Below are positions 4,511 to 10,559 of a stretch of 20,000 bases of DNA, piece after piece. The stretch comes from an uncultured virus (IMG/VR IMGVR_UViG_3300044267_003392) (taxonomy: Duplodnaviria > Heunggongvirae > Uroviricota > Caudoviricetes). Each line of letters opens with the position of its first letter. Within the stretch, counting starts at the first letter, position 1. The stretch is taken from the IMG/VR virus record IMGVR_UViG_3300044267_003392, one strand, 5' to 3'. The translations under genes and the position numbers were made by a program. The notes under the pieces were generated by a model. The model searched no databases, was not told the origin of the DNA, and was given only the letters and a program-made list of their open reading frames with translations.

Positions 4511-5146
4511 TTACTCTTCTTGACTCTCTGATGATACTGGCGTGATGTCTTTAGGTCCTTCGCTATCGGATTTCTCTTCGACCGATAAGACTGTGTTGAC
4601 TCCCTCTTTTTTGAATTCACCTGTTAATCCTAGCTCCTTTAATTGTCTTAGTACATCATCTCGAGACATGTCATCAATAGATCCTGTTCTAATTTCTTTT
4701 CTCTCAACATACAATCCTGCAGCTTGTCCTCGTAACCGTTCTGCATTTATAGCAGCACTGTGTGATTTGTCTTGTAATGCCTTCTCACGTAGTCTTGCTA
4801 ATTCTGTCACATGTTTATTCATTTCTACCTTGTGTGTCTCGTACAATTCATTTCTTTTTTTGTTCACTATTTGTACCACTTTAGGATATTTCTTTACATT
4901 CAACAACTCAGAAGCTGTTGTTGCAGCACGTTCAGGTTTATAGCCTGCTTGTCTTGCACATTCTGTTGGTGTTATTCTACCTTCGTTAGCAACATATATA
5001 TCTACAAATATTCTTTGCCTATCTGTCAATCCATCAGCACCTCTTGGGTGTTTTAATGCCATATCACGAGTATTACGGATGGTATTACCAACCACCTTCT
5101 CTTCAATCTTCTTTAACTTACTGTTATATATATCTTTTTCACTCAT
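4511..5146 (-). CDS. terS: Terminase small subunit
   Basis: LTDRQRIFVDIY...CARQAGY...TASELL HTH pattern and SAAINAERLRGQAAGLY. Start placed at MSEKD (5146) because of a GGAG RBS. Confidence 0.85.
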   Translation of the reverse strand: MSEKDIYNSKLKKIEEKVVGNTIRNTRDMALKHPRGADGLTDRQRIFVDIYVANEGRITPTECARQAGYKPERAATTASELLNVKKYPKVVQIVNKKRNELYETHKVEMNKHVTELARLREKALQDKSHSAAINAERLRGQAAGLYVERKEIRTGSIDDMSRDDVLRQLKELGLTGEFKKEGVNTVLSVEEKSDSEGPKDITPVSSESQEE

Positions 5147-5340
5147 TTTAACTCCAAAATACAATAATTTGACTCTTTACCCATGAACTCGTAATACCTT
5201 CGTAATACCTGGTATCCCTTATCCCATATAGAGAATTGGCAAAAGGTATTACGGTATTGGCAAATCCCGGTAAATAAAAAAACAAAAAAACTTTTTAGCA
5301 TCCAGCGCACAATACAATACCTATGGTAATACGACAATAC
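5070..5340. repeat. Cluster of GTAATAC/GTATTAC direct and inverted repeats
   Basis: GTATTAC at 5070, 5082 and 5246; GTAATAC at 5191, 5202 and 5326; CAATAC at 5310, 5315 and 5335; 11-bp inverted pair CGTAATACCTT (5190-5200) / AAGGTATTACG (5243-5253). Confidence 0.8.
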
Positions 5341-7022: not shown

Positions 7023-7126
7023 AACCCTATCATGTATAAAAATATTTTATACACCCATATCAATAAATAAAAAGCAACATACAATTTTATAGGTATTAAT
7101 AAAAACCAAAATAATGTCCAGGTCAT
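7019..7126 (-). CDS. Small membrane peptide MTWTLFWFLLIPIKLYVAFYLLIWVYKIFLYMIGL (35 aa)
   Basis: ATGA overlaps at both ends. Confidence 0.7.
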   Translation of the reverse strand: MTWTLFWFLLIPIKLYVAFYLLIWVYKIFLYMIGL

Positions 7127-7362
7127 GTGCGTATCGCTATGTATTCATAATCAAAGTCAGCGTGTTTCTTTTGCACTAATAATAACAAACCATTATCTGC
7201 CATAGAATAAACTGTGCTGCCTAATTTTTTTACGCGATCACGATCATTTGTTGGCGCTATTGGCTGTAGAAAAGGATCACATAAGTAACCGCGGTAATAT
7301 GTTATCTTATCACCTTTGTTAGATTTATTTAACCAGGTGTGTATTGCTTTTTGACTCATCAT
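7123..7362 (-). CDS. Hypothetical phage protein (79 aa)
   Basis: First ORF of the leftward operon (ITYYRGYL...LVQKK...YEYIA). Confidence 0.8.
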   Translation of the reverse strand: MMSQKAIHTWLNKSNKGDKITYYRGYLCDPFLQPIAPTNDRDRVKKLGSTVYSMADNGLLLLVQKKHADFDYEYIAIRT

Positions 7363-7375
7363 AATAATTTCTTTT

Positions 7376-7560
7376 TGAGTAGGGGGGTTCTTTGACTACC
7401 CCCAACCTTTTCCCGTCCAGTCAACATTTCCTATGCTAACAAGTACTTCAGTACCAACCCTCACACCCTCAGTCATTCGACCATACCTTGTGAGAGCCGT
7501 GCCTTACAACCTGGAGACTGTTGTTCAGCCATACTCGGAGAATGTTGCACCATCCTCATT
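7376..7560 (-). ncRNA. Candidate ~185-nt multi-stem structured RNA or 5' leader
   Basis: Starts just after promoter 7568-7596; at least six nested stems, several with G-U pairs that only work on the minus strand; no credible ORF. Confidence 0.65.
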
Positions 7561-7567
7561 TACGTGT

Positions 7568-7596
7568 ATTATACCATTTTTACCAAAACATTACAA
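7568..7596 (-). promoter_or_regulatory. Leftward sigma70-type promoter
   Basis: TTGTAA-17 nt-TATAAT with an extended -10 TG. Confidence 0.75.
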
Positions 7597-7643
7597 GAAC
7601 ATTATTTCGCAGATTTCTGCGGCAAATCGTGTCAAGAAAAAAC

Positions 7644-7678
7644 TTTACTTGTCACGCCTTGTAACATATAACTAAATT
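7644..7678 (+). promoter_or_regulatory. Possible rightward promoter for the plus-strand cassette
   Basis: TTTACT-17-TATAAC or TTGTCA-18-TAAATT at the point of divergence. Confidence 0.45.
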
Positions 7679-7753
7679 CTCAACTTCATTTCACCCAGTG
7701 GACTCTATACTGCTCATTCGAGCAGTGAGGGTCCCATTAACAAAGAGAACAAT

Positions 7754-7846
7754 ATGGCAACAAGAATCAGAAATATCTGGTATAAATTTAAAAAATGGTT
7801 ACACTACCACCCTGAAAAAACTTATTTCAGGGGACATCGTGATTAA
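7754..7846 (+). CDS. Small protein MATRIRNIWYKFKKWLHYHPEKTYFRGHRD (30 aa)
   Basis: Hand translation; AAAGAG leader; overlaps the next start codon. Confidence 0.6.
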   Translation: MATRIRNIWYKFKKWLHYHPEKTYFRGHRD

Positions 7847-8101: not shown

Positions 8102-8863
8102 ATGAAAAACAACATAATATTATTAGTATTACTAACTTTTATACTTAGTGTAAGCACTGTGTCATTTGCCAACGACACAAATTCACAGACAAATACTTCT
8201 GGTTCCAATACAAATATTACGGGTGGATACACGGCTACCACAACAAACAATAACGACGGACAAACAAACACAACTACGTCAACAACAACGAATTCAACAA
8301 CATCTAACGCATCAGATATACCACCACCATCTGCTAACTCACCATCTTACTCGTCCATGAGCCAAGATGTGTGCTCCATGGGTATTAGTGGATCTGTTTC
8401 TACTGGTGTTTTTGGTTTATCGGGGGGCAAACATGTGGTCGATGAAAACTGCGAGCGTATAAAATTAGCCAAGGTCCTTCAAGATTTCGGCATGAAGGTT
8501 GCAAGCGTGGCGGTGCTTTGTCAAGACAAACGTGTATTTGCAGCCATGGAAGCTGCAGGCACACCATGCCCATACTCAGGCCTCATAGGTCCACAGGCCG
8601 CGGAAATGTGGGAAAAATACCCTGAACTTAGACCTGATTACGAAGAACATCTTGCTAAAGAACAAGTAGTCGCTAAAATAAATGCTGAAATTGCAGAAAA
8701 AGAAAGAATAGAGGCAGAGAGAATAGCTGCCGAAGAGGCAGAAGCAGCAAGAATAGAGGCAGAAAGAATTGAACAAGAACTACTTACATTAAAGGAAGAA
8801 AATGAAGTTAACGATATCGAGCCTGTTATTGACCCTGTGCCTGTTAACATGCACGGCGAATAG
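8102..8863 (+). CDS. Putative secreted protein: Thr/Asn/Ser-rich region, Cys-containing domain, coiled-coil tail
   Basis: GGAGG RBS; signal peptide ending SFA-ND; DVCSMG, DENCERIKL, VLCQD and GTPCP motifs. Confidence 0.85.
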   Translation: MKNNIILLVLLTFILSVSTVSFANDTNSQTNTSGSNTNITGGYTATTTNNNDGQTNTTTSTTTNSTTSNASDIPPPSANSPSYSSMSQDVCSMGISGSVSTGVFGLSGGKHVVDENCERIKLAKVLQDFGMKVASVAVLCQDKRVFAAMEAAGTPCPYSGLIGPQAAEMWEKYPELRPDYEEHLAKEQVVAKINAEIAEKERIEAERIAAEEAEAARIEAERIEQELLTLKEENEVNDIEPVIDPVPVNMHGE

Positions 8864-10559
8864 TGTAGAAGTAACTACAGGAAATTTATTACCAAACGCA
8901 AATGATGGTGTAGACTGGGGATCCAGTAGCACAGATCAAATACATTCTGGATCTAGTTCCGGTTACGTTACCAACGGCAGCACTGTAGGTGGATTTGATA
9001 TTACTTGTACTAATCAATCTAACTGTGGATATAAATACAGCGTAGGTGGTGATTTTGAAGTAACAGGTGATACTACAGTATCTGTTGAAGATGTAGGATT
9101 AACAACAAACTCCATAACACAACAAATGTTAGATAATGGTGTAACATTAAATAGTCACATTGACGTTGCAAACTGCGAAAGCACAGAAGGTAATTGTGAA
9201 TCTAAAGGCGGTGCAAATGACACACATACAACCACAATAGTATTAAAAGATTCAAGTGGTAATGTACTAAGTACAACAACACAGACAAGAAACGAAGTTA
9301 CAGGATTCCAAGGTAATTGTAATGGTTATCCGGGCTCAAGTGCCGCTGGCATATCGTCAGCATGTGGGCAGTACACTGACACAGTTACACACAACGATGT
9401 GGGTGCAAACAAGTTTGATTGGTCATGGCGTGGTGTTGACAGTAATTATACTAATCAATCTAGACAAGGACCAAACTTACTTGGTGCAAAGGTTACAATG
9501 ACCTACAACAACACCGAGTACAATCCAATAGACGATGACGCAGCTGATGCAATAGATGACATAGAAGAAAATATACCTGACATACCAGAAGATATATTTG
9601 AAGAACCAGATTTTACATTTGAAGAAGAATATTTTACGTGGGAAGATGATTTTTATTTTGAGGATGATTTTTTTGAAGAAGATTTTACCGTGTATGAAAT
9701 GCCAGAAGAATTTCAAATTATAGAGATGCCAGAAGAATTTGAAGAAATGGCCATGGAAATGCCAGAAGAAATGCCTGACATGGAAATGCCTGCAGACATG
9801 GAAGACGCATTTACAATCATATCAGAAGAAATGCCAGAAATGGAGATGACAGAAGAACCTACTGAAATGGAGATGGAAGAAGAATTTGTGGAAATGGAAA
9901 TGGAGGAAGATAAACCAAACATGGAAGAAGTCAAGGAAGAACCTGCAGAAATGGACATGGCAGAAGAAGAAACTGTTGACATGGAGATGAAAACAGAGGA
10001 AGATACCATGGAAATGCCTGAAGAAGAGGCAGAAGAAATGGAGGTAGCTGAAAATGAAGATACCATGGAAGACCCCAAAGAGGATGAAGAATCTAGCGAA
10101 GGTTCTGAAGAAACACTGGAAGAAGAGTCGGGATCGGAAGAAAGCGTTTCAGAGACTGCTTCGAATGAAGAAAAGACAGTGGGAGACACAGATGTTGCTG
10201 ACAAAGGAGGAATCAAGACTAAGAATATCGAAGTCAGCAAGAATATAAAGATTAAAGACGTGGATGTCGGTGAAATAAAAATAACCGTCAACCCAAAAGA
10301 TATATTTAAGGAGGTCGTTAGCCTAGATTCATACGAAAGTAAGGATTTTTACAAGGATAAGGGCCTCCAATACAAAGTAAATGACGATTTCTTTGACCAA
10401 GCAAGCATGATTCAATACAACAAAGAAATATACACAAATGTTACTTTAATAGCCTACATACAGACAGATCCGGTGACTGTGTACAAACAGGAGCTGGAAG
10501 AATTGGCTATACAAAAAGCTGGAATTATGATAGAATTAAAGCTCTTGAGAGGAGAATAG
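8802..10559 (+). CDS. Putative secreted protein: Cys-paired N-terminal domain plus a long Glu/Asp/Met-rich low-complexity region (585 aa)
   Basis: Signal peptide MKLTISSLLLTLCLLTCTANS; CTNQSNC, CESTEGNC and CNG...ACG; repeated EMPEE/EMEM. Confidence 0.85.
   Translation: MKLTISSLLLTLCLLTCTANSVEVTTGNLLPNANDGVDWGSSSTDQIHSGSSSGYVTNGSTVGGFDITCTNQSNCGYKYSVGGDFEVTGDTTVSVEDVGLTTNSITQQMLDNGVTLNSHIDVANCESTEGNCESKGGANDTHTTTIVLKDSSGNVLSTTTQTRNEVTGFQGNCNGYPGSSAAGISSACGQYTDTVTHNDVGANKFDWSWRGVDSNYTNQSRQGPNLLGAKVTMTYNNTEYNPIDDDAADAIDDIEENIPDIPEDIFEEPDFTFEEEYFTWEDDFYFEDDFFEEDFTVYEMPEEFQIIEMPEEFEEMAMEMPEEMPDMEMPADMEDAFTIISEEMPEMEMTEEPTEMEMEEEFVEMEMEEDKPNMEEVKEEPAEMDMAEEETVDMEMKTEEDTMEMPEEEAEEMEVAENEDTMEDPKEDEESSEGSEETLEEESGSEESVSETASNEEKTVGDTDVADKGGIKTKNIEVSKNIKIKDVDVGEIKITVNPKDIFKEVVSLDSYESKDFYKDKGLQYKVNDDFFDQASMIQYNKEIYTNVTLIAYIQTDPVTVYKQELEELAIQKAGIMIELKLLRGE

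What the first reader, a model, noticed from the sequence alone, without database searches (positions are those of the whole stretch)
7376..7560. Highly structured ~185-nt RNA directly downstream of a strong promoter
Seen on the minus strand: closing helix CAAC-AUUCUCCG (7547-7536) / CGGGAA-AAG-GUUG (7415-7403); hairpins ACAAC/GUUGU; GGCUCUCACA/UGUGAGGGUU enclosing GGUC-GAAU-GACU; GUAC-UGAA-GUAC; GUUAGCAU/AUGUUGAC; and a 3' GGGGGU/ACCCCC hairpin. There is also an internal near-repeat GUAUGGCUGAACAAC / GUAUGGUCGAAUGAC. G-U wobbles favour this strand, and the segment is GC-rich for this genome. It lacks tRNA, tmRNA, RNase P and hammerhead signatures that I can recognise. Inference: a possibly undescribed phage ncRNA, ribozyme or riboswitch-like leader for the leftward operon that runs toward the LexA-like gene and terS.
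Basis: partly seen in the sequence, partly recalled or inferred. Interest (0 to 1): 0.75.

Follow-up and report, generated by a model that had tools for sequence, protein, structure and literature searches.

The report
Divergent manA-like RNA of pelagiphages
The flagged stretch is a real, strongly conserved folded RNA at the start of an early phage message; it is an uncatalogued, diverged relative of the known "manA" phage RNA and is shared by several unrelated groups of viruses that infect the ocean bacterium SAR11.

Summary
The structured RNA is real. It lies on the minus strand at 7557-7377, behind a TTGTAA-17-TGgTATAAT promoter and 14 nt ahead of a 79-codon gene. In 74 distinct homologues, 90.1% of pair cells form pairs, against 67.5% in shuffles (0/500), and 40 of 56 pairs change on both sides. 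G.U outnumbers A.C 606 to 21, which fixes the strand.

Its closing helix and its GUAC hairpin do not.

The RNA is not wholly new. Rfam's manA model (RF01745) aligns it end to end at 30.6 bits, below the 55.2-bit cut-off (E 5e-6). Twenty relatives score 31.6-47.4 bits or nothing, and none reaches the cut-off. The outer frame is shared with manA; the central domain differs.

The family has at least 113 distinct copies in IMG/VR. It occurs in the cultured Pelagibacter phage HTVC008M, under an annotated CDS. Only one contig among 185,579 cellular genomes carries it. There was one copy in each of the eight records searched whole in which it was found.

Downstream genes vary, and some copies stand alone, which argues against a gene-specific riboswitch. 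Two loop contacts covary, and the P1 loop is always self-complementary. A 2026 preprint shows manA RNAs self-assembling, so I favour a self-associating RNA module. That mechanism is inferred, not shown.

The parts
7591..7596 (-). -35 hexamer TTGTAA
   Evidence: Promoter scan; coordinates.
7568..7576 (-). Extended -10 element, TGgTATAAT. The inferred transcription start is near 7561-7560, 3-4 nt ahead of P1.
   Evidence: 17-nt spacer, 10 of 12 matches, TG present. The start site is inferred from promoter geometry only. RNA-library contigs end at 7551 (+3 letters) and 7544, which is a weak hint.
7538..7557 (-). P1 hairpin: GAGGAUG / CAUUCUC with apical loop GUGCAA (7550-7545) holding the self-complementary core UGCA
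   Evidence: 9 of 9 P1 pairs change on both sides and 80.3% of cells pair. G.U 74 against A.C 18. The loop core is self-complementary in all 83 distinct P1 segments: 65 by script, 18 by my own reading.
7532..7536 (-). P2 5' strand, GAGUA (the true closing helix of the junction)
   Evidence: Pairs with 7381-7377. 99.4% of cells pair and 5 of 5 pairs covary.
7501..7531 (-). Junction UG plus the P3 hairpin: GCU..ACAAC [L3 AGUCUCCAG, 7519-7511] GUUGU..GGC
   Evidence: Shares the manA-like strings UG-GCUGAAcAA ... GUAAGG. The stem never varies in pattern-derived copies. Copies found through the 79-aa protein show a shifted ACU/AGU to ACC/GGU stem.
7456..7498 (-). P4 long hairpin with the conserved internal loop GUAUG...UGAG and an inner hairpin (7481-7472)
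   Evidence: 11 of 11 outer pairs covary. In the inner helix 3 of 6 pairs covary and 97.1% of cells pair. This hairpin replaces the three-way-junction domain of canonical manA.
7444..7455 (-). Conserved motif GGUACUGAAGUA (invariant GU and AGUA)
   Evidence: Invariant columns. No helix covariation. The same UGAAGUA-helix-GAAAAG motif occurs in a canonical manA subgroup (2010 alignment).
7412..7443 (-). P5 (CUUG / CGGG) enclosing P6 (UUAGCAU / AUGUUGA) and the docking strand UUGAC-UGGA (7424-7416)
   Evidence: P5: 3 of 3 pairs covary but only 69.7% of cells pair. P6: 4 of 5 pairs covary, 86.6% paired. The docking strand pairs with L7 and L3.
7403..7411 (-). Near-invariant junction AAAAGGUUG
   Evidence: Invariant or at least 90% conserved columns.
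7382..7403 (-). P7 hairpin GGGGG / CCCCC with loop L7 UAGUCAAAGAA (7398-7388). GUCAA (7396-7392) is complementary to UUGAC (7424-7420).
   Evidence: P7: 99.7% of cells pair and 3 of 5 pairs covary. L7-to-target complementarity of at least 5 Watson-Crick pairs in 41 of 58 classes, against 20% in cross-class controls.
7377..7381 (-). P2 3' strand, UACUC
   Evidence: coordinates.
7123..7362 (-). First gene of the leftward operon: 79 aa, invariant YYRG and DFDYEY motifs, function unknown. Its AUG lies 14 nt after P2.
   Evidence: No Pfam or PHROG family. 36 related loci, 31 with the RNA upstream. AlphaFold2 model pLDDT 80.8. No PDB match at E <= 0.001.

Best explanation
Window 7557-7377 (minus strand) encodes a divergent, uncatalogued subclass of the manA RNA fold.

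It is transcribed from a strong sigma-70-type promoter as the very 5' end of the leftward early message.

Its anatomy is:
- a 5' hairpin, P1;
- a junction closed by P2 that holds P3, P4, P5/P6 and P7.

Two covarying loop contacts tie the fold together. The P3 loop and the P7 loop both pair with one docking strand, 7424-7416.

I read it as an autonomous RNA module rather than a switch for one particular gene. By analogy with canonical manA RNAs, which assemble into pentamer-based oligomers through kissing loops in vitro, it most likely works by RNA-RNA association. The self-complementary P1 loop would give a two-fold contact between copies.

Shown: the RNA, its strand, its fold, its kinship with manA, and its spread among pelagiphages.

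Inferred: the transcription start, self-association, and any action in trans.
For: Fold and strand:
- Covariation on 74 distinct rows. G.U 606 against A.C 21. RNAalifold finds compensatory changes in 21 of 35 pairs.

Kinship with manA:
- Rfam manA aligns the window over the full model, 30.6 bits, E 5e-6.
- 7 of 20 relatives score 31.6-47.4 bits at E <= 1e-3. HTVC008M's copy scores 25.9 bits.
- In reverse, my model R1 gives the canonical manA of phage Mosig (Rfam 64 bits) 15.4 bits, E 0.0017, full length.
- The variant in L100 and the canonical manA in Mosig both sit ahead of a rubrerythrin gene.
- The UGAAGUA-helix-GAAAAG motif and palindromic P1 loops (GAUC, AGCU, UUAUAA) occur in canonical subgroups of the 2010 alignment.

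Loop contacts:
- P3 loop with docking strand: 19 of 19 distinct classes keep 5 pairs, against 13% in cross-class controls.
- P7 loop with docking strand: at least 6 Watson-Crick pairs in 31% of classes, against 4.7% in controls.

P1 loop:
- The core is self-complementary in all 83 distinct P1 segments. 65 were found by script (TTGCAA/TGCA/ATGCAT 56, CAATTG 4, GATC 3, TCGA 1, AATT 1). The other 18 I read by eye (TGCA-type, TTCGAA, CATG, TTATAA).
- Other hairpin apexes are rarely palindromic: 4/62, 9/63, 2/42 and 3/22.

Module, not gene switch:
- One copy in each of eight records in which it was found.
- The genes downstream fall into 25 protein clusters. They include a gp32-like SSB, rubrerythrin, HTH regulators and unknowns.
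- Free-standing copies exist. Phage 023Pt_psg01 carries one convergent with a CDS. The L040 group has a second promoter after the RNA, and L102 has a terminator after it.
- Many copies have an outer helix that pairs the two ends.

Precedent:
- manA RNAs form pentamers, decamers and a 60-mer through intermolecular kissing loops (bioRxiv 10.64898/2026.07.01.735769; I read the abstract, section 8 and passages).

Presence in RNA libraries:
- Contigs from 3 of 4 marine metatranscriptome runs laid (3 studies) cover 7371-7551, 7376-7544 and 7376-7488.
Against: - No experiment or computation here shows self-association. Covariation cannot tell contacts within one molecule from contacts between molecules.
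- The variant lacks the central three-way-junction domain of canonical manA, which may carry some of the loops used in the published assemblies. I could not see that preprint's figures or supplements.
- The window's P1 loop, GUGCAA, offers only 4 self-pairs (duplex -4.1 kcal/mol).
- In this window, and in 71 of 113 distinct copies, a start codon follows within 10-37 nt. The RNA is therefore usually tethered to a message, which fits a cis role.
- A palindromic loop could also be the mark of a dimeric protein.
- The P7-loop contact competes with the lower stem of P6, and both have support. The fold is not fully settled.
- R1 does not find the manA of cyanophage S-CREM1, apart from a 5-bit match to P7. 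Kinship with manA is distant.
- The RNA libraries may hold DNA, and contigs cannot show transcript ends.
Confidence: 0.6

Rival explanations
1. Classical cis-acting riboswitch or leader: the fold binds a small molecule or ion and controls translation or elongation of the 79-aa gene and the operon behind it.
For: - manA was proposed as a riboswitch candidate (PMC2864571, passages read).
- The element lies in a 5' UTR here, and a start codon follows within 10-37 nt in 71 of 113 distinct copies.
- The fold is complex, with conserved junction nucleotides.
- Two mutually exclusive pairings, the lower stem of P6 and the P7-loop contact, could form a switch.
Against: - Downstream genes share no pathway: 25 protein clusters, among them SSBs, rubrerythrin, HTH proteins and unknowns.
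- Some copies have no downstream gene on their strand, or have their own terminator or a second promoter after them.
- No terminator or anti-Shine-Dalgarno platform overlaps the 3' strand. In the window, 14 A/U-rich nt separate P2 from the AUG.
- In cyanophage S-CREM1 the canonical manA sits flush between two tRNA genes.
Confidence: 0.2
2. 5'-end shield or processing module: a compact knotted domain at the first nucleotides of the transcript protects the message from 5'-end-dependent decay, or marks a processing site that releases a stable RNA.
For: - The fold starts about 3-4 nt after the inferred start site.
- In 55 of the 56 copies with a recognisable promoter, the -10 element ends 25-46 nt ahead of P2 (74 nt in the other one), which places P1 or P0 at the 5' end.
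- Outer helices pair the two ends in many copies.
Against: - A simple hairpin would do that job. About 185 nt with conserved junctions and two long-range contacts is far more than is needed.
- There is only one copy per record, so it is not a general leader for early messages.
- Free-standing copies have nothing to protect.
Confidence: 0.1
3. Protein-binding RNA: a decoy or scaffold for a host or phage protein, for example a dimeric protein that reads the palindromic P1 loop, or the 79-aa protein encoded next to it.
For: - The palindromic loop is compatible with a two-fold symmetric binder.
- The RNA lies ahead of the 79-aa gene in 31 of 36 loci found through that protein.
- The fold search gives faint winged-helix-like rows for the 79-aa model.
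Against: - The RNA also occurs without that gene, ahead of many other genes.
- The fold matches are all weaker than E 0.05.
- The palindrome changes its sequence (UGCA, GAUC, UCGA, CAUG, UUAUAA), which a sequence-reading protein would not tolerate without co-variation of its own.
Confidence: 0.07
4. Not an RNA element at all: the plus-strand ORF 7433-7675 (80 aa) is the real feature, or the hairpins are DNA-level operators. A further variant is that it is a self-cleaving ribozyme.
For: - An 80-codon ORF overlaps the element on the plus strand.
- P1 lies where an operator could sit.
Against: - The ORF has no family.
- No single antisense frame is open across the element in more than 13 of 112 distinct copies.
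- G.U 606 against A.C 21 shows selection on the minus-strand RNA, in P1 too (74 against 18).
- No ribozyme family matched, and RNA-library contigs span the element.
Confidence: 0.03

Closest known systems
manA RNA motif (Rfam RF01745; Weinberg et al. 2010, PMC2864571)
   Same: - A 5' hairpin followed by a multi-helix junction closed by a 5-bp helix.
- Junction strings UG-NCUGAAyAA ... UAAGG.
- A 3' hairpin, UUG-NGGGUA ... AAUCCN-C.
- A contact between the P3 loop and the strand 3' of the next-to-last hairpin. In S-CREM1 this is GGUC/GACC by my reading.
- A marine phage setting, either ahead of varied genes or free-standing.
   Different: - It scores 30.6 bits against a 55.2-bit cut-off.
- The central three-way-junction domain is replaced by one long hairpin with a GUAUG...UGAG internal loop.
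- The CUGAAGUA...GAAAAG motif encloses P6 instead of that domain.
- The P7 loop pairs with the 3' strand of P6 rather than with its loop.
- The P1 loop is UGCA-type rather than the usual GACG.
- The hosts are phages of SAR11, not of cyanobacteria.
Canonical manA subgroup with a GAUC P1 loop and UGAAGUA...GAAAAG (marine metagenome rows of the 2010 seed alignment; supplement file 5, part 120)
   Same: - A palindromic P1 loop.
- GGGUA-UG at the P2/P3 junction.
- The UGAAGUA-helix-GAAAAG motif.
- A 3' hairpin of the GAGGGUAU...UCCCUC type.
   Different: - Those rows keep the GGUGGUG three-way junction.
- My hallmark strings GCUGAACAA (within manA.sto) and GAAAAGGUUG occur 0 times in that file.
manA RNA-only assemblies (bioRxiv 10.64898/2026.07.01.735769, July 2026)
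   Same: The same fold class. Loop-loop pairs that comparative analysis would read as pseudoknots are intermolecular there (L5-L7', L8-L9', L3-L8').
   Different: - Nothing was tested for this variant.
- That work's helix numbering and figures were not visible to me.
- The preprint text does not hold the word stems 'palindrom' or 'self-complementary'.
Retroviral dimerisation-initiation-site kissing loop (recalled, not from a call)
   Same: A hairpin whose apical loop carries a short self-complementary core, so that two copies pair loop to loop.
   Different: The context is unrelated. This is named only as a working analogy for P1.

Membership tests
manA RNA (RF01745) | Score at or above Rfam's gathering cut-off (55.2 bits) | tested here: not met
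   The window scores 30.6 bits. 0 of 20 relatives reach the cut-off; the best scores 47.4. HTVC008M's copy scores 25.9.
manA RNA (RF01745) | Statistically significant, full-length, colinear alignment to the model | tested here: met
   Model positions 1-192 of 192, E 5.1e-6 in a 701-base search. 7 of 20 relatives are full length at E <= 1e-3. In reverse, R1 against Mosig's manA gives 15.4 bits, E 0.0017.
manA RNA (RF01745) | A 5' hairpin plus a junction closed by a short helix, with a conserved UG-NCUGAAyAA...UAAGG hairpin and a UUG-NGGGUA...AAUCC 3' hairpin | tested here: met
   Alignment. P1, P2 and P7 are supported by covariation.
manA RNA (RF01745) | Central three-way-junction domain (two nested hairpins, GGUGGUG-type loop) | tested here: not met
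   cmscan leaves this region unaligned. The family has a single P4 hairpin there. For the canonical form.
manA RNA (RF01745) | Long-range loop contacts (the 'pseudoknot?' of 2010; kissing loops in the 2026 preprint) | tested here: inconclusive
   Two covarying contacts exist. Their equivalence to the published ones could not be mapped, and whether they act within or between molecules cannot be told from sequence.
manA RNA (RF01745) | Self-assembly into pentamer-based oligomers | not testable with these tools
   Known only from the preprint's cryo-EM.
Riboswitch (generic) | A ligand-binding aptamer coupled to an expression platform, upstream of functionally related genes | tested here: not met
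   No terminator or Shine-Dalgarno-sequestering platform. The downstream proteins fall into 25 clusters with no common pathway. Free-standing copies exist. Ligand binding itself cannot be tested here.
Self-cleaving ribozymes in Rfam | A match to a ribozyme covariance model | tested here: not met
   None at the gathering score and none at E <= 10 in 7100-7800.

The most novel reading that the evidence does not exclude
Pelagiphages of several unrelated lineages carry a single-copy gene for a self-assembling RNA.

In this reading the self-complementary P1 loop makes two-fold contacts. The P3 and P7 loops dock on the neighbour's 7424-7416 strand and make ring contacts. Infected SAR11 cells would then hold RNA-only oligomers or cages like those of canonical manA.

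These would act in trans, for example by sequestering or scaffolding a host component. The downstream message would be only a passenger.
Probability: 0.25. Interest if true: 0.9.

Novelty: new variant of a known kind. Interest (0 to 1): 0.63.

Why it matters
Pelagiphages are among the most abundant viruses in the sea. This RNA is conserved across four of their lineages:
- the window is HTVC023P-type by TerL (68% identity to HTVC027P);
- HTVC008M-like myoviruses;
- HTVC115P-like podoviruses;
- HTVC033P-like podoviruses.

Genome annotation and Rfam's cut-off both miss it.

It extends the manA class beyond cyanophages. It also offers a cultured system, HTVC008M on Pelagibacter ubique HTCC1062, in which to ask what manA-type RNAs do.

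The always-palindromic P1 loop and the two covarying loop contacts give direct, cheap mutational tests of whether such RNAs associate in vivo. That question was opened by the 2026 cryo-EM preprint.

In practical terms, the CDS AGE60342.1 of HTVC008M probably needs re-annotation, and a new Rfam family or a manA clan is warranted.

Tried and rejected
- Rfam at gathering score on the whole window: 0 matches. ARAGORN: 0 genes.
- blastn ('distant' mode) of 7100-7800 against 50,697 phage records: no match. The conserved words are too short for it.
- The genome search with RF01745 on the window's own record: 0 matches. Its first-look filter missed what cmscan found.
- Alignment A2 misaligned the 3' hairpin and was dropped in favour of A1.
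- R1 against the cultured phages HTVC027P, HTVC023P, DSL-LC04, HTVC115P, HTVC104P and HTVC033P: no match. The first look may miss diverged copies.
- R1 against the manA of S-CREM1: only a 5-bit local match to P7.
- L016, L020 and L022 have the 79-aa gene and upstream DNA but no full element. L022 shows a 20.7-bit piece of P4 only.
- Other weak Rfam rows (L20 leader 25.1 bits on the plus strand, snoRNAs, DUF2815 RNA): judged chance matches.
- The 79-aa protein: no Pfam or PHROG family. The protein atlas gave only unnamed viral clusters. Foldseek against the PDB gave no match at E <= 0.001; the best was 0.069, to methyltransferase N-terminal or winged-helix-like pieces. No function is assigned.
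- Run X8 gave no contig on the stretch. This is no evidence of absence.
- Papers PMC12753301, PMC9599517 and PMC9004378 hold nothing on this RNA.
- Literature searches that found no report of a manA-type RNA in pelagiphages.
- The scan's earlier notes hold nothing on this genome or on look-alike sequence.
- The position of the 2010 'pseudoknot?' annotation line could not be reached.
Full report
**1. What is there**

On the minus strand a sigma-70-type promoter precedes a GC-rich stretch. The promoter is TTGTAA 7596-7591, a 17-nt spacer, then TGgTATAAT 7576-7568, matching 10 of 12 positions with TG present. The element has GC 0.489, against 0.371 for the window. It ends 14 nt before the AUG (7362) of a 79-codon ORF.

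The window lies in a 27,970-base IMG/VR virus record that is 41% complete. Annotated genes include terL, a ferredoxin-type gene, terS, a LexA-DNA-binding-like gene, DNA polymerase, helicase and primase. TerL is 68% identical to that of Pelagibacter phage HTVC027P and 57% to HTVC023P.

**2. Is the fold more than chance?**

The single sequence gives only modest evidence. The MFE is -62.3 kcal/mol with z -2.16, and 6 of 200 shuffles fold as well. The plus strand gives z -1.03.

Comparative data decide the matter:
- The downstream protein found 36 further loci.
- From 116 full-length pattern hits I took 48 k-mer-distinct representatives plus the window, aligned them as A1, and built model R1.
- R1 found 78 real copies in 84 sources. 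The window scores 167.7 bits. The element lies upstream of the 79-aa gene in 31 of 36 loci. Three of the other five have upstream DNA but no copy, and two have too little upstream DNA.

On the resulting alignment (74 distinct rows) 90.1% of cells pair. Shuffles give 67.5% (0 of 500 reach the observed value), and partners slid by 1-3 columns give 38-48%. Forty of 56 pairs change on both sides. This alignment was fitted to the model, which favours it, but RNAalifold on the plain MAFFT alignment already showed compensatory changes in 21 of 35 pairs.

G.U outnumbers A.C 606 to 21, so the RNA is read from the minus strand. The overlapping plus-strand ORF (7433-7675) is not conserved: no antisense frame is open across the element in more than 13 of 112 distinct copies.

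**3. Anatomy (coordinates)**

| Part | Coordinates | Note |
|---|---|---|
| P1 | 7557-7551 / 7544-7538 | loop GUGCAA |
| P2 | 7536-7532 / 7381-7377 | closing helix |
| P3 | 7529-7501 | 9-nt loop L3 |
| P4 | 7498-7456 | inner hairpin and a conserved GUAUG...UGAG loop |
| Motif | 7455-7444 | invariant GU..AGUA |
| P5 | 7443-7440 / 7415-7412 | |
| P6 | 7439-7433 / 7427-7421 | |
| Junction | 7411-7403 | AAAAGGUUG |
| P7 | 7403-7382 | loop L7 |

- P3, P4 with its inner hairpin, P6 and P7 hold.
- The 'closing helix' does not. Its 5' half is the 3' strand of P1, and its 3' half is an invariant junction.
- GUAC/GUAC has no compensatory change.

**4. Long-range contacts**

The last five bases of L3 are complementary to the five bases just 5' of the P5 3' strand. 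In the window this is UCCAG / CUGGA. Elsewhere I saw ACAAA/UUUGU, AAGAG/CUCUU, AGCUA/UAGCU, CCUAA/UUAGG, GCAAC/GUUGC and ACAAG/CUUGU. Nineteen of 19 distinct classes keep five pairs, against 13% when loops and targets of different classes are crossed.

L7 is complementary to the adjoining bases, which form the 3' strand of P6. In the window this is GUCAA / UUGAC. Elsewhere I saw CCAAU/AUUGG, AUCCA/UGGAU, UCACA/UGUGA, UCAUCCA/UGGAUGA and a 9-mer. At least 5 Watson-Crick pairs occur in 41 of 58 classes against 20% in controls, and at least 6 in 31% against 4.7%.

The L7 contact competes with the lower stem of P6. The 5' strand of that stem resembles L7 but uses G.U where L7 uses Watson-Crick pairs. 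Both pairings have support, and I leave this unresolved.

**5. The P1 loop**

All 83 distinct P1 segments carry a self-complementary core at the apex. The script found 65: TTGCAA/TGCA/ATGCAT 56, CAATTG 4, GATC 3, TCGA 1, AATT 1. For the other 18 the script chose a wrong centre, and I read TGCA-type, TTCGAA, CATG or TTATAA cores in the printed sequences.

Apexes of the other hairpins are palindromic far less often: 4 of 62, 9 of 63, 2 of 42 and 3 of 22. P1 has G.U 74 against A.C 18, so selection acts on the RNA and not on a DNA palindrome.

The independent switches away from UGCA are few, about four. The inference that self-complementarity itself is selected is therefore suggestive, not proven.

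**6. Relation to what is known**

At gathering scores Rfam finds nothing. With E-value reporting, the manA model RF01745 aligns 7557-7372 over all 192 positions at 30.6 bits, against a cut-off of 55.2, E 5.1e-6.

- Of 20 relatives, 7 match at E <= 1e-3 (31.6-47.4 bits) and none reaches the cut-off.
- Shared with manA: the P1 hairpin, the closing helix, UG-NCUGAAyAA...UAAGG, and UUG-NGGGUA...AAUCC.
- Not shared: the central three-way junction.
- R1 gives the canonical manA of Pelagibacter myophage Mosig (Rfam 64 bits) 15.4 bits, E 0.0017, full length. It gives the S-CREM1 manA (96.6 bits in Rfam) only a 5-bit match to P7.
- In Mosig the canonical manA sits ahead of rubrerythrin. In IMG/VR locus L100 the variant sits ahead of rubrerythrin.
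- The 2010 seed alignment (supplement file 5, part 120 read) contains subgroups with GAUC, AGCU or UUAUAA P1 loops and the UGAAGUA-helix-GAAAAG motif. The variant's hallmark strings are absent from it.

I therefore file it as a new variant of the manA kind, not as a member by Rfam's own criterion.

**7. Distribution and context**

- In cellular genomes the pattern occurs once in 185,579 species genomes, on a 9.8-kb contig of a marine MAG that also holds the 79-aa gene. That contig is probably viral.
- In named phage records, HTVC008M carries it at KC465899.1 5022-5241 (171.9 bits). It sits behind TTGACA-17-TATAAT and 54 nt ahead of the annotated gp32-type SSB start (5296); P2 itself ends 77 nt before that start. 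The annotated hypothetical CDS 4993-5163 overlaps it.
- The environmental genome 023Pt_psg01 carries it at MW574966.1 10176-10405 on the strand opposite to all neighbouring genes. It has its own TTGACA-17-TATATA promoter and runs into the end of a CDS.
- Proteins next to IMG/VR copies are closest to four pelagiphage lineages: Mosig/HTVC008M (82% and 64%), HTVC115P (80%) and HTVC033P (33%).
- There is one copy in each of the eight records in which it was found.

Among 113 distinct copies:
- an ORF start follows P2 within 10-37 nt in 71;
- at 45-125 nt in 32, some with an intervening promoter;
- none within 160 nt in 10, some of which are cut by a locus end and one of which has a clear terminator.

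The 103 downstream proteins fall into 25 clusters. They include the 79-aa family, a gp32-like SSB, a gp2.5-like SSB, rubrerythrin, HTH proteins and unknowns.

**8. Expression**

Thirteen marine RNA-library runs hold a small share of the stretch's words. Of four runs laid, three (from three studies) have contigs over 7371-7551, 7376-7544 and 7376-7488. Their flanks differ from the window, so they come from relatives.

These libraries may contain DNA, and contigs cannot show transcript ends. The two contigs that stop at 7551 (+3 letters) and 7544 are only a weak hint of a 5' end near the predicted start.

**9. How it most likely works**

A July 2026 preprint reports by cryo-EM that manA RNAs assemble in vitro into pentamers. 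These build decamers, octamers and a 60-subunit shell, held together by intermolecular kissing loops (10.64898/2026.07.01.735769; I read the abstract, section 8 and passages). Figures and supplements were not available to me.

Several facts about this RNA fit that picture:
- The genes that follow it vary, and some copies stand alone.
- It is single-copy.
- Outer helices pair its ends.
- Two loop contacts covary.
- A hairpin loop that can pair only with another copy of itself is always present.

I therefore judge a self-associating, autonomous RNA module the best reading. Identity as a manA-type RNA I put at about 0.85-0.9. The self-association mechanism I put at about 0.35-0.4.

Rival readings are a classical riboswitch or leader (0.2), a 5' shield or processing module (0.1), a protein-binding RNA (0.07), and an ORF, DNA element or ribozyme (0.03).

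**10. Verdict**

This is a real and biologically interesting RNA, and a new variant of a known kind. Its 'undescribed' label is only half right, and its ribozyme idea is unsupported.

Noticed in passing
L172:1501-1720 (= KC465899.1 5022-5241); CDS AGE60342.1 at 4993-5163: In the cultured Pelagibacter phage HTVC008M an annotated 'hypothetical protein' CDS lies over the 5' two-thirds of the RNA (R1 171.9 bits). It is probably a mis-call.
   Followed up: partly
L168:467-674 (Pelagibacter phage Mosig EXVC030M, MT647606.1): A canonical manA RNA (Rfam 64 bits, above the cut-off) sits behind TTGACA-17-TATATT and 22 nt ahead of the rubrerythrin gene. Its P1 loop, AAUUAAUU, is also self-complementary.
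   Followed up: partly
L023, L060, L155: the 57-59 nt between the RNA and the 79-aa gene: These copies carry an extra GC-rich insert that looks like a hairpin (GUGCUG...CAGGCAC arms). It lies between the manA-like RNA and the start codon and is absent from the window. The Rfam scan that included L060 reported nothing there.
   Followed up: no
L157:1216-1430 (Synechococcus phage S-CREM1): The canonical manA lies flush between tRNA-Leu (which ends one base before it) and tRNA-Asn (which starts on its last base). It is therefore probably released by tRNA processing rather than acting as a leader.
   Followed up: no
L158 (NHBP01000011.1, a 9.8-kb contig of a Planctomycetaceae MAG): This is the only cellular-genome hit of the pattern. 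The contig also encodes the 79-aa phage protein right after the RNA, so it is probably a phage contig binned with the MAG.
   Followed up: no
window 8802-10559 (+): A 585-aa ORF with a signal-peptide-like start and a long, extremely acidic, Met/Glu/Pro-rich repetitive middle. It has no Pfam or PHROG family. It lies in the block transcribed divergently from the RNA's promoter region.
   Followed up: no
Upstream of P1 in the L039, L045, L051, L061 and L070 type copies: Copies without a clear -10 hexamer share a CCCAUU(U)AAAU or CCCCCAAUGG string just 5' of P1. This may be a different promoter type or part of the RNA.
   Followed up: no
window 7123-7362 (-) and 36 related loci: The 79-aa protein family has invariant W10, YYRG (22-25) and H67-x-DFDYEY (69-74). 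The predicted fold is helix-strand-helix-strand-strand (pLDDT 80.8) with no clear structural relative.
   Followed up: partly
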